A stretch of 64,000 nucleotides of DNA, taken from positions 5,302-69,301 of IMG/VR virus record IMGVR_UViG_3300033141_002688; one strand, given 5' to 3'. This DNA is from a virus. Below the pieces are notes generated by a model. It was not told where the DNA came from. It did no database searches and worked only from the letters and a program-made list of their open reading frames with translations. The translations under genes were made by a program, and so were the position numbers. This document shows, piece after piece, positions 1,487 to 61,933 of this stretch; the first letter of the stretch is position 1; every line of letters begins with the position of its first letter.

Positions 1487-3944
1487 TCTGCATACTACTA
1501 CAGTGACTAATGTGATTCAAGAGTGTTCTGCTACCTATACCCCATATGAGAAGGATTATCTAGATTGGTGGAACAATGGAGATGCTAGTGAATTTGGTGA
1601 AAAAATACAATTCACCACCGTTTCTGGGAGTGGAATAGTTAATACAGCAAGTAGATTAGTGCAAGGTTCTTCAGCACAAATTTATCAGTTGATAGTTGAT
1701 CTTAACTCTCCATTAATTACCAATCAAGATTATGATCTAAACTTTACAATAAACAACAGCTCATCAAATGTAAATGTCTCTCTCTATCTATATGATGATT
1801 CAAATGCAGCTTATCTTATAAATATTAAATCTGGGAACTTAACTAATATTGGAGATGGTACTCATTCAGTTACATTTACTCCATCATTATTTGGCAAAAG
1901 TAAGATAAAAATATTAATTGAAGGAGTATCTGGCAATGTTGACCTGAAGGTAACAGATGTATCAATTACAAAATCATCCGGTCTAATGCATTGGCACGAA
2001 TGGGATGGTGTTCTAGATAGAAAACAGGCAGCACTAAGTCTATTATTAGAAATGTGTGACTCATTTAGGACTTGGCCTGTATGGTATGGTGGAAAATTTG
2101 GATTCATCTATGATTCCGATGATACACCAATTCACACTCTCACTGTATCCAATATGAATGACTTTAACCAACAATTCATGTCGTTATCTGAAATCCCATA
2201 TAGATTGATTGGCCAATTCTCTGATGCTGATAATAAATGGGAATTGAGATCATTGATGGCAAAGGCATCACCAAATTTGGGATTGAGTAAAATAAATGAG
2301 AAAACCATTGGTCTAAAGGGTATAACAAACAGAAAAAGAGCCAGCAGAGAACTAAAATGGAAATTAGACAATGTAATAAACAGAAATCTGACTGTTAATT
2401 TCAAAACTGGTCTAGATGCTATTCATGCCAATGCTGGTGATATAGTCTATGTTCAGGATGACCTGCCATCATGGGGGCAGGGTGGGAGAATAACTAACTA
2501 CAACGCTACGGATAAGAAATTCACTTTAACGGAAGAAATAACAGTAGCATCAGTAAGTGCAGATAATATAATACGCTATCAGTTACCAGATAACTCATTC
2601 GCTACTGCTTCTGTAGATGCTTCTAATCTGAGCAATGGTGATTCAACAAGAATAATCTCTCTAAAAAACGTAACCGCAACTCCAGTAGATGATGCCTATT
2701 TTGCATTTGGAGAAATTGGTTCTGAAGCTAAAAAATTCAGGATAATAAGTACTTCAAGAAACTCAGAAGATAGTGTAGAAGTAACAGCATTGGAACACAT
2801 CTCATCTCTTTACTCTTCTTCACATGCCAGTATTATTGTTGAAGATATCAAAATGAGTAAACCAGTCAACGAAATGCAGAAACCACATGCTCCAGTTGAT
2901 GTATCAGTATTATCCATTGAGCCATCAGAAGGATTGGGATTCTGGTTAACAGCAAATCCAGACTCACAGGATACTATGGCTAATGAAGTAGTAGTCCAAA
3001 TGAGAAGAGTTGGCTCAGATGATGATTTCAATACAATAGCCATAATTCCTAGAGGACAGAATAAAACGAAATATGTTGATAATAACCTGAAACCAAATTC
3101 AACTTATGAGTTCAAATTTTTCAGCAGAACAAAATATAAGACTGGAATACCAACAATATTAACTCATACTCTGGCTGCAACTGGGTATCAACCCGATCCG
3201 CCATCAGGATTGAGGATAAAAGGAGCAGACCCAAATACTTCAACATTCAGTGGAAAAGATGTGACTATCGAGTGGAATCCTGTGGGAATTGGTGGGCAAA
3301 CGGATTTAGTAGATGGATATGTAGTTAAAGTTTATCATACAAGTTTCTCCGAAAGCAATAAGCTGAGAGAGAGTTTTGTTAAAAACGAATATTTCAAATA
3401 TACATACGAAATGATGATTGAAGACAGTGGTGGAACAATATATGGAACCGAATCTGATAATCTCATTTTCACTGTTCAGACTAAAGCAACAAATGGTGTT
3501 TTATCTATAGCAAGTGATCCTTTATTTGTATATAACACTATTCCAGCAAATATTAGTTCACTGAGTTCTGAGTCTACTGTTGGAGGAGTTAAGTTCTATT
3601 GGAGAAAAAGCAATGAAGATGACCATAAGGCTTACCAATACAAATTGAAAGTAGGTTCTGGAAATTGGAGTGCTGTTAGTAATACTGAAGATAATAGTTT
3701 AATTAGGACATTAAATGCTACTGAAATTGATTCATATGGGAATAGAGCAGGTATTGCTTTTAAGGTTAAGGATTTGGATTGGTTTGGGCAAAGTTCTGAC
3801 AATTGGGCAAGCACTTGTGCTAGTGCGAATACGATTAGTTGTGATATTTTTAGACTTTCAATTTCTCTTAGTGCAAGTATATCAGGGACATCTGCAAGTT
3901 TAATTGATGGTGAGACTAATTCTGGAGGAGTTTTAATTCCATAA
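1419..3944 (+). CDS. Tail tip protein (TipJ-like), central/C-terminal part with FN3-like domains
   Basis: Phage-tail_3-like region (GITNRKRASRE...F.TGLDA...GDIVYVQD...WG.GGRI), KFRIIST...VEVTALEH, then FN3-like repeats (LKPNSTYEFK, PDPPSGL). Continues the previous ORF. Confidence 0.8.
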   Translation: MQLKYIGMIQIVGEQNTQIIEDDLHTTTVTNVIQECSATYTPYEKDYLDWWNNGDASEFGEKIQFTTVSGSGIVNTASRLVQGSSAQIYQLIVDLNSPLITNQDYDLNFTINNSSSNVNVSLYLYDDSNAAYLINIKSGNLTNIGDGTHSVTFTPSLFGKSKIKILIEGVSGNVDLKVTDVSITKSSGLMHWHEWDGVLDRKQAALSLLLEMCDSFRTWPVWYGGKFGFIYDSDDTPIHTLTVSNMNDFNQQFMSLSEIPYRLIGQFSDADNKWELRSLMAKASPNLGLSKINEKTIGLKGITNRKRASRELKWKLDNVINRNLTVNFKTGLDAIHANAGDIVYVQDDLPSWGQGGRITNYNATDKKFTLTEEITVASVSADNIIRYQLPDNSFATASVDASNLSNGDSTRIISLKNVTATPVDDAYFAFGEIGSEAKKFRIISTSRNSEDSVEVTALEHISSLYSSSHASIIVEDIKMSKPVNEMQKPHAPVDVSVLSIEPSEGLGFWLTANPDSQDTMANEVVVQMRRVGSDDDFNTIAIIPRGQNKTKYVDNNLKPNSTYEFKFFSRTKYKTGIPTILTHTLAATGYQPDPPSGLRIKGADPNTSTFSGKDVTIEWNPVGIGGQTDLVDGYVVKVYHTSFSESNKLRESFVKNEYFKYTYEMMIEDSGGTIYGTESDNLIFTVQTKATNGVLSIASDPLFVYNTIPANISSLSSESTVGGVKFYWRKSNEDDHKAYQYKLKVGSGNWSAVSNTEDNSLIRTLNATEIDSYGNRAGIAFKVKDLDWFGQSSDNWASTCASANTISCDIFRLSISLSASISGTSASLIDGETNSGGVLIP

Positions 3945-5227
3945 TGTCTAGGAAATTGACTTATGAATTTGTGAAATCACAATTTGAAAAAGAAGGTTAT
4001 ACTCTACTAACTAAAGAGTATAAAAATACTAAACAGAAGTTAGAATATATTTGTCCTAAAGGACACAAGCATTCAATAACTTGGGATGCTTGGCAACAAG
4101 GACATAGATGTTTATATTGTTCAGGTAAAGCCAAGAAAACAATTGAAGAAGTTAGAGAAGCATTTGAATCTGAAGGTTATACTTTACTAACCAAGGAGTA
4201 TAAAAATAATCAACAAAAGCTCAAATACATTTGTCCAAATGGACACAAGCATTCAATAAAATGGCATAATTGGTATCATGGTTATAGATGTCCCTATTGC
4301 TCAGGAAATACTAAGAAAACAATTGAAGAAGTAAGAGAAGCATTTAAATCTGAAAATTATATTCTATTAACTAAGGAATATAAGAACGCTTTTCAAAAGC
4401 TTAAATTTATATGTCCAAATGGGCACAAGCACTCTATAACTTGGGCTAATTTTCAACGAGGTCAAAGATGTCCTTATTGTATAAATAAGAATATCAAGAA
4501 GACAATAGAAGAAATCAGAGAAGCATTTGAATCTGAAGGTTATACACTCTTAACTAAGGAATATAAGAATAATTCTCAGAAACTAAAATATATTTGTCCT
4601 CAAGGACACAGACATTCTATAAGTTGGCATGAATGGCAACAAGGTACAAGGTGCTCTTATTGTGCTCATATTAAGATTGCTAATAAGCGGAAATTAGATT
4701 ATGAATTTGTTAAAAGTGAATTTGAAAAAGAAGGTTGCAAGTTATTAACTAAAGAATATAAAAATTGTTATCAAAAATTAGATTATATTTGTCCTAGAGG
4801 ACATAGACATTCAATAAAATGGAATAGTTGGCAACAAGGCAGAAGATGCCCTTATTGTTATCATGAAAGTAGAATCAAATACTACACTAAAAAAGATTTA
4901 GAGAGATACAATAGTTATAGAGAAGCAGTAGACAATCTAACCAATAGAATATATAAAAAGTATAGAAATTATATCAATCCAAGTAAACATAGAAGAGGAA
5001 AACGTTCTTACCATCTAGATCATATTTATTCAGTGATAGATGGATTCGAGAATAATATTCCAATAGATATAATTTCAAACCCCAATAATCTGAGAATAAT
5101 TCCTACAAAAGAGAATTTAAATAAGAATGGAACTTCTTATATCTCTAAAATGATGCTATATCATATATCTACCTCAGAGGTGATAATAAGTGGGCTGGCA
5201 GACGGTCGCATACGAATACGAAAATAG
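3944..5227 (+). mobile_element. Free-standing HNH homing endonuclease with five tandem zinc-ribbon repeats
   Basis: Five ~59-aa repeats FE.EGY.LLTKEYKN..QKL.YICP.GH.HSI.W..W..G.RC.YC; C-terminal YHLDHIYS...NLRIIPTKENLNK HNH motif; lies between tail genes. Confidence 0.85.
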
Positions 5228-40411: not shown

Positions 40412-42055
40412 CTAAATTGTCAATTCAAATTTCATATTTCCACAATCAAATATTCTATAATAACCATTCTCATTCATATTCTCAACTTCTGTTTTATTCG
40501 GATTGAATGTTTTTAATTTTTTATTCAATACACTCTTTCTAAAATTGAATCTATGAATCAAATTATAAGGATTTTTTAATGAGAAATACCAATAATTAGG
40601 ATCAGTATAATGTACAAAATTAAAACCTAATCTCTTATAAAGATTACCATCACTCCAGCGTCTATCTGCATAAGAGATTATTTTAATAGGATTGTAATTA
40701 CTAATGAAATATTTCAATAGCTTAGATGCTACTCCAACTACCCTAAAATTATAATTAGAACAGAATCGGTCAAGTTCATAAGTGTTAATTTCACTTTTGG
40801 AACCCTTAGCAATATTAAGTTTTCTAAAAGTCATAACTGATACTAACTCATCATTATGAAAAGCACCTAGTTTCACTGTTGAACCGTTGTATCCTTGAAG
40901 ATGAAACTTATCAATAAAATTTCTGGCTGATTTAGCGTCTATCTTTCTTACTGTACAATTTCTAGCAAAGATTACTTCAGCTTCACTAATATTTAGAATA
41001 TCTTTTAACCTTCTTTTTACTATTTCTTTTTTCAACATCCATTCATTTTCAAATATAGTGATGAGTCTATAATTATTAGAATTACATCTTTCCAATTTGT
41101 CCAATTGACATTTCTTATTCTTTCTAACTTCATTAGAGTGCCAATACAAACCACAAAACTCAATAGCCGTCTTTTTGCTTGGGATCACTATATCTAGTTC
41201 AAGTGGTTTGATTAAAGTTCTGTCATTGTTTACTATGTCTGAGAAATTAGGTTTTAGGAAATTAAATAGTTCGTGTTCCATCTGTGAAGTATTTGAATTA
41301 CACTGAGGGCATCTTCTGCCTTGTTGCCACTCGTTCCACCGAATATCGTGTTGATGACCATTAGGACAGACATATTTTAATTTCTCCTTACTATTGCTAT
41401 ATTCCTTAGTTAATAATTTGTAACCTTCCTTTTCAAATGATTTTCCTATTTCTTCTATAGTTTTTCTCATATTTCCTGCACAATAAGGACACCTGACTCC
41501 TCGTTGCCAGGCACTCCATTTTATTAAATGTTTGTGTCCCTGAGGACAGATATACTCTAATTTTTGCCTACTATTTTTGTATTCTTGAGTCAGTAGAGTA
41601 TATCCTTCCTTTTCAAACGCTTGTTTTACAGAATCCAATCCTAATCTAGTTTCATTCATTTTACAATATTTACACCTACTTCCTTGTTTCCACCTTTTCC
41701 AAGTAATATAATATCTATGACCATTTGAACATATAAATTCAAGTTTTTGATATTGATTTTCATATTTCCTAGTTAGAAGTTTATACCCTTCTTTTTCAAA
41801 TTCCTTTCTTATAAAATCAATTGTTAATTTCTTCTTATCTGATCTTTCTATCACCCCACAAATGTTACATCTATGACCTTGTTGCCACTCATTCCATCGT
41901 ATTAAACCTATATGATTATTAGGACAAATATATTTCAACTTTTGTTTATTATTTTCATATTCTTCGGTTAGAAGAACATAACCTTCATTATTAAATTGAG
42001 ATTTTATAAATTCCAGATCAAGTCTCTTCATAAAACCTACTTCTAGCTCCATCAA
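40412..42055 (-). mobile_element. Putative homing endonuclease: four zinc-ribbon repeats + very-short-patch/Hef-like nuclease + C-terminal GNAT-like domain
   Basis: Same repeats as 3944-5227; S..E.EL...ELDI...AIEFCGLYWHS...K...C...LITIFENEW; C-terminal SYADRRWS.G.LY..LGF...IFDCG. Confidence 0.8.
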
Positions 42056-56926: not shown

Positions 56927-57648
56927 ATTTCATCAAACTCTTTGTTGCATTCAAAACAGTAATACTTGTTACTGTTTTCAATCTGCAAAACTTCCTCTGA
57001 CTCACAAAATGGACAGAGTTTTTCAACATGGTACGGGTTCCAATTATCATCTAGAAACCAATTCTTTATGTCGAATTGTGGTTTGACCTTTTTATACGAG
57101 TCATTAGAAAAATAGTTCCCTTTGTATTTTTCAAACTTCCCAAACAAATATACTTTTCCTTGGTCTGCAAGAATAATCTTACTCCCTGTTGTAATAGACC
57201 TTATAGCGTTTTCAATTGCAGGGTCTTTTCTGAGATATGGCAAAAGTGGAGTCATTATATCTTTTACGAAAATCATAGTATCAGTTAAATCTCTCTCTCC
57301 CTGTCCTAATACTCCATTATGTAGCAGGGCAGACTCACATATAATATCCAGAGCTTTTAAATCCTTTATCTTTTTACTAATAGGGAAGGGATGGCATTCT
57401 GACTTGAAATCCTTAAAACCGGAAGTTGCAATTCTGAAATGATAAAAAACTTCATTTCTCTTATTTAGTCTTTGGTTTTTGTAATCTTCCCAAAAACTAT
57501 CAAAAGTTAAAAATCCCTTTCTGATATGATATTTACCATTTTCCTCATACATATAACCTATCCCATCTGGATTATTAGCAAAACAAACTTCCAGTGTTTT
57601 CCTTTGCGGCAATCTAGTTCCCTTTGGACTATAAATGGCTATGCACAT
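56923..57648 (-). CDS. Class II (Ntn) glutamine amidotransferase
   Basis: N-terminal MC, NPDGIG, HFRIATSG, CHPF, HNGV, DT, YFSN. Confidence 0.88.
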   Translation of the reverse strand: MCIAIYSPKGTRLPQRKTLEVCFANNPDGIGYMYEENGKYHIRKGFLTFDSFWEDYKNQRLNKRNEVFYHFRIATSGFKDFKSECHPFPISKKIKDLKALDIICESALLHNGVLGQGERDLTDTMIFVKDIMTPLLPYLRKDPAIENAIRSITTGSKIILADQGKVYLFGKFEKYKGNYFSNDSYKKVKPQFDIKNWFLDDNWNPYHVEKLCPFCESEEVLQIENSNKYYCFECNKEFDEI

Positions 57649-58877
57649 AGTAAATCCTTTCTATCCATAAAATCATACAGATTCATATAGCTTTTCCTAT
57701 TCTCATTCACGTACTTAGCGAATACTTCCCAAGTCATTTCCTTAATTCCCTTTACTCTGGTAAACTCATAAATTGCCTTGCAAAACTCCATGTTTTTACA
57801 AAAACTCTTAAAATTAAGAGTACCTCTGAATATTCTAATTTCAATAGTGTTGGAATTCTGGACATTCACGGCGCTATACCTATTAAATGAATGGGATTTA
57901 GCCTTTCTCACTAAATCTTTGTGCTCTGTATCCTGAATGCTTGCATAACTCTCCAATTGTGACTCTTTTCTTTGGGAAATGATCCTTATAAAATCCTTGT
58001 TTTCATCCTCATAGAACAGTTTCAGTAATTTATACAGTTGGATACTGGAAAAAGCTTCCCTAGACATATGAACATGCATACCACATGTTCCAGCATCATA
58101 TGAAATATACCTTTTTTCCTTGAGAAAATTGAGCATATTCTCAAATCGGTGCTTGTTCTCTTTGTACCATTTCCAGGAAAGTGGATGGAAAACAATTTCA
58201 AATCCATTATTTAGACTCCCATCATATTTGCAATATATCTCATCTTCTGAAAAGTAATCATATAATTCTTTAACAGTATCAAAATGATTAACATAACTTT
58301 TTCCTTCAACTTCAAGTTCTATCCCAAAAAACAGATTAGTCTTTTCGTTTTTTCCATTTTTAAATTTCAACTCAGGAGTAAAACCATATGGTTTTATAGG
58401 AGCATTTTCAGCACAATATTGGCAATAGAAATTTCCATCAATTTCAATAGCATCATCCATACTAATTAAGTCCCCGCAATCAAAGCATGAAGTAAATAGT
58501 TCGTTGAAGCAAGACTCACAGTATTCATTTCCGCAATTGTCGCAAAGTGCTTGTTCTCTATCAACTATATCCAGACAGTTATAGCATCTAGTAAATAGTT
58601 CGTTGAAGCAAATTTCACAATATAAATTTCCTTCAGCTTCAAAACTCTCCTCAATGGGTATTATCTCTGAGCAATATGAGCATTCAGTAAATAACTCGTT
58701 GAAGCACTTCTCACAATAATACTTATCGTCATTAGCCGTGAAAGCATCTTCTCTAAATATGATATTTCCACAATTTTCACATGGGAGAGTTAACTTATCA
58801 AAGCACTCCTCACAATAGGGTTTACCTTGAAAAATCAAGCAATCTTCTTTTTCTTTACCGCAATTTGAGCATTTCAT
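57639..58877 (-). CDS. Amidoligase (COOH-NH2 ligase, Amidoligase_2-like) with N-terminal Cys-rich zinc-ribbon repeats
   Basis: About five CxxC-x15-YCxxC repeats; GIELEVE, DGSL..GFEIV.HP, CGMHVH, RYSAVN, TIEIRIFRGT. Confidence 0.88.
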   Translation of the reverse strand: MKCSNCGKEKEDCLIFQGKPYCEECFDKLTLPCENCGNIIFREDAFTANDDKYYCEKCFNELFTECSYCSEIIPIEESFEAEGNLYCEICFNELFTRCYNCLDIVDREQALCDNCGNEYCESCFNELFTSCFDCGDLISMDDAIEIDGNFYCQYCAENAPIKPYGFTPELKFKNGKNEKTNLFFGIELEVEGKSYVNHFDTVKELYDYFSEDEIYCKYDGSLNNGFEIVFHPLSWKWYKENKHRFENMLNFLKEKRYISYDAGTCGMHVHMSREAFSSIQLYKLLKLFYEDENKDFIRIISQRKESQLESYASIQDTEHKDLVRKAKSHSFNRYSAVNVQNSNTIEIRIFRGTLNFKSFCKNMEFCKAIYEFTRVKGIKEMTWEVFAKYVNENRKSYMNLYDFMDRKDLLCA

Positions 58878-59334
58878 TTCTAATCTCCCTTTCTCATATG
58901 TAGGAGTTTTTCAACATCTTCTAGGACACTTTCCCATACCTCCTTTTCCATTAAGACTAGGTACAAAAATAAGGACATAAGGAATGTCCTTATTATAATC
59001 ACCTCTAAATCCTAACACTTTACCTTTCCTACCATGCAATACAGAATTAGGATTATTTATTCTTACAATTTTGTTTAAATTTCTTTTATTTCTTTTTATC
59101 ATTTTTCTCTCCTCCCTATAGATACTAGGTGCCCTTTGTACCTGCCTGCATGAAAACCACAATTAGGGCATCCTTTGGGGTTTTTTCTATCGTATGTAAA
59201 CTCTTGTTTACACTTAGCACATGTTACCTTATAGTATCTTTGCATTTTTCTGTCTCCTTTCTCTTTTTAAATCCTTGAATTTGCTAGGTTTTTTATGAGC
59301 TTAGTGAGCAAAAAAAGCCTGTTATTCTAATGAC

Positions 59335-59421
59335 TTACACGAATAACAGGCTAATAGCAGTAATGACCAGGAAACCAAGGCAAAAGGCTATAAAGTTTAC
59401 AATACTAAGATAGTGTTTCAT
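59335..59421 (-). CDS. Small membrane peptide (28 aa)
   Basis: MKHYLSIVNFIAFCLGFLVITAISLLFV with GGAG SD. Confidence 0.45.
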   Translation of the reverse strand: MKHYLSIVNFIAFCLGFLVITAISLLFV

Positions 59422-59435
59422 TTTCCTTTCTCCCT

Positions 59436-59658
59436 CCAGTTTAAGGTTAATCCCTAAGCCTTTTAGCAGCAGAAAAAGCTTCTTTGGCAGTGGGATAATT
59501 CCAGTGAAAAATCCATTCACCGGTAGAAGCCGAAAAATAAAGGCTGAAATGTCGGCTATATGGTCGGTTATCGTGTTCCACTACCTTATACTTATCATTC
59601 TCTGCTAATACGGTTACTCTCTCCATGATCATCCTCCCAGTTTAAGGTTAACCCCTAA
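59436..59658. repeat. 22-bp direct repeat CCAGTTTAAGGTTAA(T/C)CCCTAA upstream of the first two leftward genes
   Basis: Copies at 59436-59457 and 59637-59658, one mismatch, each abutting an SD. Confidence 0.75.
59447..59632 (-). CDS. First leftward small ORF, hypothetical
   Basis: GGAGG SD; just downstream of a sigma54 site. Confidence 0.5.
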   Translation of the reverse strand: MIMERVTVLAENDKYKVVEHDNRPYSRHFSLYFSASTGEWIFHWNYPTAKEAFSAAKRLRD

Positions 59659-59673
59659 TCCTGCCTTGATATG

Positions 59674-59691
59674 TTGCATATTCCATGCCAA
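59674..59691 (-). promoter_or_regulatory. Sigma54 (-24/-12) promoter facing the leftward early genes
   Basis: TTGGCATGGAATATGCAA (GG-N10-GC). Confidence 0.6.
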
Positions 59692-60193
59692 TTGAATATC
59701 CCTAATCCTCTCTTAATTTAACCTAATTGAGCTTAAGGAATTTCCTGATCCAACCGACAATTTACGCCCCTAAATGACAAACTTTGTAATCCATAATGAT
59801 AACAGACACTTGAAACTTCCAAACTTGACAATTCTTGTCATTCAGTCTCTACCTTCCAGCTCGAATTTCTCAATCCTGAATCATACCATACCAAGTTTGA
59901 GCCTGTCAAGAAAAATCCTTCGGTGGGAACTGAAAATTCCCAATTCCACTCATATTTGACTTAATCAACTCTCAGTGCCGATAATCGGCTGTAATCGGGA
60001 TTGAGGTAAGCTATTGATATGATTGAGAATCCAAAATTTGCATGAAAATTTCCCTAAAGGGTCTTCTGAAATTTTCGACTCTGTAAACCCTTGATATTTA
60101 ATTGAAAATTCCGGATCACCGTGATTTTCAATGAAAAATGAAGGAAAATGGAGTTCGGAAACTGAGAGTTGCTTACCCAAAGGGCCATGAGAA

Positions 60194-60473
60194 TTGGCAT
60201 GTTATATGCTATAGCAAGAAGTGTGCCATTCGAGTTTGGCATTCATCTTGCATGCTTGCAATTCTCATGCCATAATATGGAATCTTAAGTTGGCAAAATT
60301 GAACTTAGTTTAACCTAATCCTCAATAGGCAAGCAAGAAGCATGCCAATTGAGTTTGGCTAATTCTAGCTTAGTTATTCTCAATTCTCAATATGGCACGC
60401 CGATTGCATACATGCAAGTTCTATGCCACTGGCAATTGGCACGCATTTTGCATACGGGAGCGATCATATGCCA
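60194..60473. promoter_or_regulatory. Array of eight exact plus one degenerate sigma54 -24/-12 sites in alternating orientation
   Basis: TGGCA-N7-(T)GC sites starting at 60194(+), 60214(-), 60236(+), 60256(-), 60333(-), 60393(+), 60413(-), 60436(+); a 9-nt-spacer variant at 60460(-). Confidence 0.8.
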
Positions 60474-60620
60474 ACACAATCCAGATACAAAAAATTCTAA
60501 AAAATCCTACTAATTTAGTATATTTAATTCTGAGTATGTATCATAAAAACTCAAGAATCTCCAGTATATATAATTCAACTCTCTCTTAAAAATTTCCAAA
60601 AAATTTCTAACATTTTAGAC

Positions 60621-60648
60621 TTGACAAATGAGAATTAATGGTTATAAT
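60621..60648 (+). promoter_or_regulatory. Sigma70-type promoter TTGACA-N16-TATAAT for rightward genes
   Basis: TTGACA aatgagaattaatggt TATAAT, then AAGGAG SD. Confidence 0.8.
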
Positions 60649-60669
60649 ACTATAAATAAGGAGAGAGAA

Positions 60670-61061
60670 ATGAAACTAATTGAAAAGCAAGCTTTGCTGG
60701 TGTTTTGACACTGAAAGACTCAATTAACATAGTGAGAAGCTCTTCCCCTTTTAGATTTAACAGTGAGCAGAGGAGAGCACTAGTGAATGAAATTAAAATG
60801 AAATTCGATATGTTTAGGAGAACCAAAACGAAACTTAACACACTTGAAGATTTAAATAAGGTTAATTTAAATGATTTCAACTCAGTTGTTATATTTTATT
60901 ATTCTGATGTTATATGCATATATTTCACAGGAACTCATTCAAAAGATATAGTGTTTTGCCATTCAGATACTTCTCTTAATGGATTCATTTTAAGATGTAG
61001 ATTACAGAATATCAATGTTTCTGAATTATTAATTGCAACTAGACTATTTCGGAATCAATAA
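60670..61061 (+). CDS. LRxKLE family B protein; probable start 60670 with a homopolymer frameshift at ~60704
   Basis: SLNGFILRCRLQN; paralogous to 62167-62421. Confidence 0.6.
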
Positions 61062-61082
61062 GTGATATAAAAGGAGATAGTT

Positions 61083-61268
61083 ATGAGTAGAGTGAACAAA
61101 TTTTTTGAGTGGTTTAGAGAGAAGTGGGATGCGATGTATTTAACCGACTGGGAATGGAAAAGGAAATATTGTCCTAATCTTTATAAATATTTATTTGAGA
61201 TGGATGATAAAGAGAGACGTAAAATGTGGGATAATTATATAAGACAAGTTACAAGTGGAAGTCAATGA
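61083..61268 (+). CDS. Hypothetical Trp-rich protein
   Basis: AAGGAG SD, intact ORF. Confidence 0.5.
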   Translation: MSRVNKFFEWFREKWDAMYLTDWEWKRKYCPNLYKYLFEMDDKERRKMWDNYIRQVTSGSQ

Positions 61269-61360
61269 AGAGAGAGGTGGTGTAAAGTTTGTGATTTTCT
61301 TGAGAGTATAATCAACTGGGTTGAAATACAACTTCTTATATATCCGAGAGGAGGATTAAA

Positions 61361-61933
61361 ATGAACAAACTCGAACTGGAAGACAGAATTATAAAAAGAG
61401 CTGATATGGAAAATATTGAGATTGTCAAATGTAATATTTACAGGAAAGGTAAAAACCGTATAAACATACTTCCTACAGTGGTGAATAATTATAAAGACGA
61501 GTGGATTTCCAAGTTTCAGATTGAATCGTTAATTGATGAAGTTGTTCCTTTTGATATTGAATATGAAATACCTTCGATAGACTTGGAGGGTAGGTATAGT
61601 ATATTTAAGGTTGGTGACATTGTTGAAGTAGATAATATATGGATTAGACTTGATGCCGATGAAGAGTGTAGTGACATGGTTGTAGGTGCTGGTTGTGGTC
61701 AGTGGAGAAAAGGATGGATGAAAGGTAAAGTTTTTGAGTTAAACGATGGGATGGTAGGCGTTAAATTTAATAGAGATGTATGGATTGAGAAACCTGATAT
61801 TGGTTGGATAAATGATGTGTCTGAACTCAAGCGACTTATAGCGAAAGGTGATATTTATAAAGTGGAGAAAGGTCAGCCAGTTTATATAGGAATCCAGAGC
61901 TGGAATTTGAGAAAGATAAGAAATAATAGATGA
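61361..61933 (+). CDS. Hypothetical protein with SH3/KOW-like C-terminal half
   Basis: FKVGDIVEV...GKV...GVKF; GGAGG SD. Confidence 0.55.
   Translation: MNKLELEDRIIKRADMENIEIVKCNIYRKGKNRINILPTVVNNYKDEWISKFQIESLIDEVVPFDIEYEIPSIDLEGRYSIFKVGDIVEVDNIWIRLDADEECSDMVVGAGCGQWRKGWMKGKVFELNDGMVGVKFNRDVWIEKPDIGWINDVSELKRLIAKGDIYKVEKGQPVYIGIQSWNLRKIRNNR

What the first reader, a model, noticed from the sequence alone, without database searches (positions are those of the whole stretch)
60194..60473. Dense array of face-to-face sigma54 binding sites: possible RNA-polymerase sponge or DNA-entry device
Seen in 280 bp of non-coding DNA: TGGCATGTTATATGC(+), TGGCACACTTCTTGC(-), TGGCATTCATCTTGC(+), TGGCATGAGAATTGC(-), TGGCATGCTTCTTGC(-), TGGCACGCCGATTGC(+), TGGCATAGAACTTGC(-), TGGCACGCATTTTGC(+), plus a degenerate partner. 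Spacers differ while GG-N10-GC is exact, so selection is on the motif, not on tandem duplication. In three exact pairs the -12 boxes face each other 4-6 bp apart, which precludes simultaneous normal initiation. Established: sigma54 holoenzyme forms stable closed complexes without activator. Inference: a decoy array titrating host sigma54-RNAP (silencing nitrogen, motility or phage-shock regulons), or a protein-bound structure at the genome end or entry point. It suggests a sigma54-rich host. I know of no described phage system like this.
Basis: partly seen in the sequence, partly recalled or inferred. Interest (0 to 1): 0.85.

Follow-up and report, generated by a model that had tools for sequence, protein, structure and literature searches.

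The report
Paired sigma-54-type sites in phage control region
A phage's main non-coding control region carries a tight cluster of sequences that look exactly like docking sites for the bacterial sigma-54 RNA polymerase, arranged face to face, and the same arrangement recurs in many unrelated uncultured phages without having been described.

Summary
The window holds 9 exact TGGCAY-N6-TGC sites (0.31 expected). Eight lie in 60195-60451 and the ninth at 59676-59690; there are none elsewhere in the 69.3-kb virus record.

They sit in an ORF-free gap where the genome switches from a leftward to a rightward gene arm, between two consensus sigma-70-type promoters.

The face-to-face unit (gap 4-6 bp) is not private to this phage:
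- It hit the 120-locus limit in IMG/VR; I estimate roughly 1,100 loci.
- Complete control scans gave 54 loci for gap 10-12 and 74 for the tandem arrangement.

In those loci the unconstrained positions reproduce the sigma-54 consensus, and the box spacing is rigid (N6 662; N5 14; N7 21). In 13 genome records 79 of 101 sites fall in one cluster per genome. No enhancer-binding protein gene was found in 49 records.

Best reading (0.4): host sigma-54 holoenzyme docks here, and the pairs act as two-way promoters feeding both arms. A decoy, or operators for an unknown protein, remain possible.

My literature searches found no description of this.

The parts
60195..60228 (.). Pair 1: + site TGGCATGTTATATGC, 4-bp gap, - site TGGCACACTTCTTGC
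   Evidence: Exact matches. As single-stranded DNA it folds no better than shuffles (z -1.68).
60237..60272 (.). Pair 2: + site TGGCATTCATCTTGC, 6-bp gap, - site TGGCATGAGAATTGC; 8 bp to the right of pair 1
   Evidence: fold z -1.65.
60333..60347 (-). Lone exact site TTGGCATGCTTCTTGCT (0 mismatches to the 17-nt consensus)
60356..60370 (+). Decayed + site (TGGCTAATTCTAGCT), 8 bp from the lone - site; a diverged copy of the back-to-back unit at 60214-60251
   Evidence: Repeat family D1, 86% identity; sequence.
60393..60428 (.). Pair 3: + site TGGCACGCCGATTGC, 6-bp gap, - site TGGCATAGAACTTGC
   Evidence: fold z -1.45.
60437..60473 (.). Pair 4: exact + site TGGCACGCATTTTGC with a degenerate - partner at 60459-60473
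   Evidence: fold z -0.33.
59676..59690 (-). Lone exact site 44 bp upstream of the ATG at 59632 that opens the left arm, with GGGAGG before the start
   Evidence: sequence read; ORF 59447..59632(-).
59880..59909 (-). Sigma-70-type promoter reading left (TTGACA, 18 nt, TG, TATGAT; 11 of 12)
   Evidence: a consensus match only.
60621..60648 (+). Sigma-70-type promoter reading right (TTGACA, 16 nt, TATAAT; 12 of 12)
   Evidence: a consensus match only.
60085..60148 (.). 26-nt-arm imperfect palindrome just left of the array
   Evidence: Inverted repeat I2; DNA fold -12.2 kcal/mol, z -4.30, 0 of 200 shuffles as good. Role unknown.
60501..60650 (.). A+T-rich stretch (20-26% G+C in 50-bp bins) between the array and the rightward promoter

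Best explanation
The array is a cluster of sigma-54 (RpoN)-type -24/-12 recognition elements in the phage's single divergent control region. Host sigma-54 RNA polymerase is inferred to dock on them as closed complexes. Each face-to-face pair offers the enzyme either orientation and so works as a compact two-way promoter. The - sites read into the long leftward replication/nucleotide-metabolism arm, and the + sites into the rightward arm of small genes. This would add a second, activator-gated input to arms that also have ordinary sigma-70-type promoters. The phage encodes no activator of its own, so firing would depend on a host enhancer-binding protein, possibly one that acts without an enhancer. 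Shown: the motif, its rigidity, its position and its recurrence in other phages. Inferred: sigma-54 binding, transcription from the sites, and activation.
For: Motif identity:
- In 609 distinct half-site contexts from 120 IMG/VR loci, the positions my pattern left free read T (61%) before TGGCA, G/A (95%) at position 7, T (72%) before TGC and A/T (85%) after it.
- This equals the consensus YTGGCACGrNNNTTGCW (recalled) and resembles the ChIP-supported Salmonella sites printed in PMC3844500 (passages).
- The box spacing is rigid: N6 662 against N5 14 and N7 21.
- The same motif appears across loci of 30-68% G+C, which fits a conserved host factor.
- No shared small protein was found: among 13 genome records only PolA (10 of 13) and a portal-like family (9 of 13) are common.

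Position:
- The window array lies between sigma-70-type promoters that read apart, at the strand switch.
- 59676-59690(-) is 44 bp upstream of the first left-arm start codon.

Other phages:
- Of 273 unpaired sites, SD-like words 0-40 nt downstream number 65, against 18 on the mirrored side.
- SD plus start codon at 20-40 nt: 17 against 1.
- 405 of 662 sites are intergenic, although about 77% of the DNA is in crude ORF calls.
- Pairs lie in divergent gaps 35 of 90 times, against 169 of 1,083 junctions overall.
Against: - No sigma-54 activator domain (PF00158) passed the cut-off in 0 of 49 records, 14 of them at least 90% complete. None was found in this record either.
- I could recognise no enhancer.
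- The array sites are about 200-770 nt from the nearest start codons, and both arms already have consensus sigma-70-type promoters.
- The overlapping face-to-face geometry is strongly preferred: about 1,100 loci estimated, against 54 for gap 10-12 and 74 for tandem. A plain promoter does not need that.
- Sites are packed too tightly for several polymerases to sit at once (an inference from footprints I recall).
- In bacterial genomes the displayed hits look mostly like chance: 48 of 80 loci hold only the selecting pair. Bacteria themselves therefore seem not to use this unit.
- The host is unknown, so the presence of rpoN is untested.
Confidence: 0.4

Rival explanations
1. Operators or iterons for an unidentified dimeric DNA-binding protein (phage- or host-encoded) that happens to share the sigma-54 motif. 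The array would then be a repressor/operator set, a replication origin, a partition site or a packaging site.
For: - Dyad symmetry with a strongly preferred gap.
- One main cluster per genome: 79 of 101 sites in 13 records. That is typical of origins and operator sets.
- Location between divergent promoters.
- Perfect 41-bp tandem copies in G033.
- 20-24 of 120 loci have the array 300-900 bp upstream of a small-terminase-like gene and the large terminase.
- PolA is present in 10 of 13 records.
- A+T-rich DNA lies next to the window array.
Against: - The same 16-nt two-box half-site occurs in phages of 30-68% G+C with no shared candidate binder.
- Half-sites often stand alone: 342 of 662.
- The central gap varies from 4 to 7 bp, which a rigid dimer would not tolerate.
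- There is no general A+T-rich flank around 72 clusters; the mean G+C difference is 0.003-0.024.
- No DnaA-box near-match lies in the control region: 0 of 24, all at chance level.
Confidence: 0.22
2. Decoy ('sponge'): the array exists to hold host sigma-54 or its holoenzyme in unproductive closed complexes. As the genome replicates, this would drain sigma-54 from host regulons.
For: - Sigma-54 closed complexes are stable without an activator (PMC3844500, passages).
- No activator gene in 49 records.
- Dense, overlapping sites that cannot all fire.
- The unit appears to be phage-specific.
- One cluster per genome would suffice for a decoy.
Against: - Some complete genomes carry only one pair (G028: 2 sites; G020 and G016: 3 sites). 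That is a small sink.
- A decoy needs no particular position, yet clusters favour divergent gaps.
- Unpaired sites sit at promoter distance from genes, as does 59676-59690 here.
Confidence: 0.15
3. A protein-bound structure at or near a genome end that controls DNA entry, like the T5 injection stop signal.
For: - The array is 3.5 kb from the right end of the record, followed only by small genes.
- 4 of 12 near-complete records have the cluster within 2 kb of a linear record end.
- T5 uses host DnaA boxes in a large untranslated region of its terminal repeat (abstract of 10.1101/866236).
Against: - The record is about 45% complete, so its ends are not genome ends.
- Repeats break assemblies, which would also put arrays near contig ends.
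- In records classed as having direct terminal repeats, the arrays are internal.
- The polymerase is only about 26% identical to any cultured phage's and is not T5-like.
- No DnaA-box near-match lies in the control region.
Confidence: 0.05

Closest known systems
Sigma-54-dependent bacterial promoters (e.g. the Salmonella sites for glnA, pspA, hypA listed in PMC3844500)
   Same: Same two-box element with GG and GC 10 bp apart, the same flanking preferences and the same rigid spacing.
   Different: No enhancer or activator gene was found. The sites are paired face to face at 4-6 bp and packed into one cluster per phage genome rather than one per operon.
Divergent sigma-54 promoter pairs in bacteria (hycA/hypA and zraP/hydH in the table of PMC3844500)
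   Same: Two opposed sigma-54 promoters in one divergent intergenic region.
   Different: In that table the two sites start about 114-168 bp apart; that they read back to back with activator sites between them is recalled. Here the -12 boxes almost touch and the predicted transcripts would overlap at their 5' ends.
T5 injection stop signal region (Davison, bioRxiv 10.1101/866236; abstract only)
   Same: An ordered array of binding sites for a conserved host protein in a large untranslated region of a large virulent phage.
   Different: T5 uses DnaA boxes inside the left terminal repeat. Here the boxes are sigma-54-type, no DnaA box lies in the control region, and a terminal position is not shown.
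Operator sets and iteron/centromere arrays (lambda OR, F sopC; recalled, not tested)
   Same: Several dyad-symmetric sites at a regular period between divergent promoters; periods of 41-44 bp resemble sopC.
   Different: Those sites are specific to each element's own protein. This motif is constant across unrelated phages, and its half-sites can stand alone.

Membership tests
Sigma-54 (-24/-12) promoter | TGGCAC-N5-TTGCW-type boxes, with GG and GC 10 bp apart | tested here: met
   9 exact sites, all with 0-1 mismatch to the 17-nt consensus. The free positions match in 609 contexts.
Sigma-54 (-24/-12) promoter | Rigid spacing between the two boxes | tested here: met
   N6 662 against N5 14 and N7 21 in 120 loci. 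In this record N6 is 9, N5 is 1 and all other spacings are 0.
Sigma-54 (-24/-12) promoter | Lies upstream of, and points towards, a gene at promoter distance | tested here: inconclusive
   Met for 59676-59690 (44 bp to the ATG) and for a subset of unpaired sites elsewhere. The array sites are about 200-770 nt from start codons.
Sigma-54 (-24/-12) promoter | An enhancer-binding AAA+ activator and its upstream binding site | tested here: not met
   No PF00158 match in this record, and 0 of 49 related-motif records passed the cut-off. No GAFTGA regex match in 7 records. A host activator cannot be excluded.
Sigma-54 (-24/-12) promoter | Bound and transcribed by sigma-54 holoenzyme; host carries rpoN | not testable with these tools
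   The host is unknown. No RNA run was listed.
T5-type injection stop signal | Ordered DnaA boxes in the untranslated part of a terminal repeat | tested here: not met
   0 of 24 near-matches to TTATCCACA lie in 59000-60700, and the total is at chance. Whether a terminal repeat exists cannot be tested in a 45%-complete record.
Iteron-type replication origin | Repeated initiator sites beside an A+T-rich unwinding stretch and an initiator gene | tested here: inconclusive
   An A+T-rich 60501-60650 is present here, but there is no general A+T-rich flank in 72 clusters. No shared initiator-like family was found.
Hairpin/cruciform element | Arms fully complementary, with a stable fold | tested here: not met
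   The four pairs fold at z -0.33 to -1.68; only the conserved boxes pair.

The most novel reading that the evidence does not exclude
Many unrelated phages carry one dedicated 'sigma-54 landing pad' per genome. It is made of dyad pairs that capture host sigma-54 polymerase without any enhancer-binding protein. Its purpose would not be ordinary gene expression but a phage-specific act: draining sigma-54 from host stress or defence regulons, or using poised, pre-melted closed complexes to start two-way replication or transcription in PolA-type phages.
Probability: 0.22. Interest if true: 0.9.

Novelty: new variant of a known kind. Interest (0 to 1): 0.78.

Why it matters
Phage use of sigma-54 is almost undocumented, because this polymerase form is silent without an ATP-driven activator.

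If roughly a thousand uncultured phage contigs really carry one cluster of face-to-face sigma-54 sites and no activator gene, one of three things follows:
- phages tap host activators that work without enhancers;
- they have an unknown way to fire sigma-54 polymerase;
- they exploit its silent, stable binding for something else.

Any of the three would be new biology. It would also give a simple sequence marker for the control region of uncultured phages, and a hint that their hosts carry rpoN.

Tried and rejected
- **Close relatives of this phage.** No DNA match among cultured phages for 59000-61500. Two single-protein scans of IMG/VR found none, and a specific array pattern found none.
- **Amidoligase neighbour gene.** A profile of this gene found 80 loci, but they hold only chance-level sites (19 in 829 kb, 12.6 expected). 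The array is not linked to that gene, and these loci served as a negative control.
- **Phage-encoded sigma-54, activator or T7-type polymerase.** None found. The T7-polymerase search also rang in none of its control genomes, so it proves nothing.
- **Cultured relatives of array-bearing phages.** The large terminase gave only distant hits. The small-terminase-like protein gave none, and the Leptospira contig gave none.
- **Bacterial genomes.** Of the 80 loci shown, 48 held only the selecting pair, so it gives no clear host signal.
- **Flanking small proteins.** No family above its cut-off.
- **Cyanophage marker psbA.** 0 of 5 records; this says little.
- **Sequencing runs.** No RNA holder was listed. 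Contigs from runs labelled hydrothermal vent metagenome cover the array at 80-100% likeness. Only 40 of 193 variant rows were printed, so I could not test whether boxes are conserved and spacers vary.
- **Supplementary files of papers.** Not requested. The Salmonella paper's supplements might hold a fuller site list.

Full report
**What is there.** The window is bases 5302-69301 of a 69,301-bp IMG/VR virus record that CheckV rates 45% complete. Its G+C is about 32%.
- Genes run rightward (tail-fibre-like proteins and an HNH endonuclease) to about 13.6 kb.
- They then run leftward for 45 kb. This arm includes ribonucleotide reductase, an SbcC-like nuclease, a family A DNA polymerase, a primase-helicase and a helicase.
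- From 60.7 kb they run rightward again as small genes of no known family.
- The polymerase is at most about 27% identical to any cultured phage's.
- Small leftward genes continue up to the ATG at 59632. The ORF-free control region is therefore about 59633-60670.

TGGCAY-N6-TGC occurs 9 times in the window against 0.31 expected, and 0 of 100 shuffles reached 9.
- All 9 matches in the whole record are here, and the pattern read backwards gives none.
- Eight lie in 60195-60451: three exact face-to-face pairs (gaps 4, 6, 6), one lone - site, and one + site with a degenerate partner.
- Weaker matches elsewhere are at chance: 14 outside the region, with 12.3 expected overall.
- Back-to-back gaps of 8 bp separate neighbouring units, which gives a 42-44-bp period.
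- Part of the array is an old duplication (86% identity over 28 nt).
- The pairs do not fold as hairpins (z -0.33 to -1.68). The symmetry therefore lies in the boxes, not in the spacers.

**Setting within the window.**
- A sigma-70-type promoter reads left at 59909-59880 (11 of 12, with TG). A perfect one reads right at 60621-60648. The array lies between them, upstream of both.
- The lone site 59676-59690(-) is 44 bp upstream of the first left-arm start codon, with GGGAGG before the ATG. The left arm thus has a distal sigma-70-type site and a proximal sigma-54-type site.
- A strong imperfect palindrome lies just left of the array at 60085-60148 (z -4.30).
- An A+T-rich stretch lies to the right at 60501-60650.
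- No DnaA-box near-match lies in the region.

**The unit is widespread in uncultured phages.**

| Scan of IMG/VR | Result |
|---|---|
| TGGCAY-N6-TGC, gap 4-6, mirror image (face to face) | stopped at the 120-locus limit |
| Face to face, gap 10-12 | 54 loci (complete scan) |
| Tandem, gap 4-6, both strands | 74 loci (complete scan) |
| Strict sub-pattern TGGCAC-N5-TTGC-N4-GCAA-N5-GTGCCA | 76 loci in the whole collection |

- Eight of the 76 strict loci were among the first 120. The full pattern should therefore number roughly 1,100 loci, or about 600-2,600 by the Poisson range on 8. This assumes the first 120 were an unbiased sample, and some contigs are near-duplicates.
- The 120 loci span 30-68% G+C, and about 35 of them hold two to seven pairs.
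- Two metagenome contigs share the exact two-pair geometry of 60195-60272 but have no sequence or protein similarity to the window.

**The motif is sigma-54-like in every respect I could test.**
- The 120 loci (994 kb) hold 662 half-sites against about 15 expected: 320 in strict pairs and 342 outside them.
- A control set of 80 phage loci, chosen by an unrelated gene, holds 19 half-sites in 829 kb against 12.6 expected.
- The positions left free by the pattern read T before TGGCA (61%), G or A at position 7 (95%), T before TGC (72%) and A or T after it (85%).
- The spacing is rigid: N6 662 against N5 14 and N7 21.
- The Salmonella sites supported by ChIP in PMC3844500 (passages read) have the same form, including frequent TGGCAT.

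**One cluster per genome, in the big non-coding gap.**
- In 12 near-complete records plus this one, 79 of 101 sites fall in a single cluster per record, inside an ORF-free gap of 525-2,131 bp.
- A clear switch from leftward to rightward genes flanks the cluster in G016, G028, G020, G013 and this record.
- Over all loci, pairs that could be classified lie in divergent gaps 35 of 90 times, against 169 of 1,083 junctions in general. These gene calls are crude.
- Four of the 12 records have the cluster within 2 kb of a linear record end. That may reflect assembly breaks at repeats.
- In some larger phages (G035, G051, G006) the sites are spread over 3-4 kb of small genes instead.

**Do they act as promoters?**

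*For:*
- Downstream of 273 unpaired sites, Shine-Dalgarno-like words within 40 nt number 65, against 18 on the mirrored side. SD plus start codon at 20-40 nt numbers 17 against 1.
- 405 of 662 sites are intergenic, although about 77% of the DNA is in crude ORF calls.
- The window's lone site sits at promoter distance from a gene.

*Against:*
- No sigma-54 activator domain passed the cut-off in any of 49 records, 14 of them at least 90% complete, nor in this record.
- No sigma-54 DNA-binding domain was found in 5 records, and no RpoN-box or GAFTGA regex match in 7.
- The favoured overlapping geometry is not what a simple promoter needs.
- Bacterial genomes seem not to use it: 48 of 80 displayed loci hold only the selecting pair.

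PMC3844500 notes that a few bacteria have activators without a DNA-binding domain that can fire any sigma-54 closed complex. That would remove the need for a phage activator or an enhancer. Whether this phage's host is of that kind is unknown.

**Is the binder a phage protein?**
- Clustering the ORFs of 13 records (phmmer plus one profile round) found only PolA (10 of 13) and a portal-like family (9 of 13) in common, and no small DNA-binding family.
- Within 3 kb of the pairs, the commonest neighbours are a large terminase (24 of 120 loci) and a small-terminase-like protein (20 of 120). This is one lineage, not a universal partner.
- These results, the constant motif across a wide G+C range, the free-standing half-sites and the variable 4-7-bp gap all point to a conserved host factor. 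BLAST-level methods could still miss a fast-evolving binder.

**Verdict.** The sequence feature is real, non-random and part of a recurrent class that, so far as I could find, is undescribed.
- Most likely (0.4): it is a docking cluster for host sigma-54 polymerase that serves as a set of two-way promoters for the two gene arms.
- Rivals: operators or iterons for an unknown protein (0.22), a sigma-54 decoy (0.15) and an entry or terminal structure (0.05).
- Four full-text searches returned no paper describing sigma-54 site arrays in phages. I read passages of two candidates (PMC3391216; 10.64898/2026.10.06.757011), and neither bears on it.

Noticed in passing
L289, L278, L326 and other Leptospira contigs: A conserved element of about 70 bp recurs every 1-2 co-oriented genes on many small contigs of saprophytic Leptospira. 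It holds a face-to-face pair followed by CCCTAAC and a short GTCCC...GGGAC hairpin. It looks like a gene-cassette array with attC-like sites. That resemblance is recalled, not tested.
   Followed up: partly
window 60085-60148: A strong imperfect palindrome (26-nt arms, z -4.30) sits just left of the array. No T-run follows it on either strand, so it is not a classic terminator.
   Followed up: partly
window 59431-59461 and 59632-59662: A 31-nt leader with a ribosome-binding site is repeated (87% identity) in front of two successive small leftward genes.
   Followed up: no
G033:C1:49424-49662 (locus L078): Six identical 41-bp tandem copies of one face-to-face pair in a 61-kb record classed as having direct terminal repeats.
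   Followed up: partly
L091 (e.g. 6288, 6357, 6759, 7442, 8278): Sigma-54-type sites here are followed directly by runs of about 20-28 C. This could be an assembly artefact or a real homopolymer tract.
   Followed up: no
window 3944-5227 and 40412-42055: Two HNH/homing-endonuclease-like genes. One lies among the tail genes and one lies beside the primase-helicase gene.
   Followed up: no
window 57639-58877: A protein with repeated zinc ribbons and an amidoligase domain. It has about 500 homologues at E no greater than 1e-5 among metagenome proteins. Its own cluster is seen on 5 contigs, the longest 118 kb.
   Followed up: partly
L067 7138-8603: About 15 same-strand sigma-54-type sites lie in 1.5 kb, some only 26-28 bp apart start to start. 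This tandem form of tight packing differs from the dyad form.
   Followed up: no
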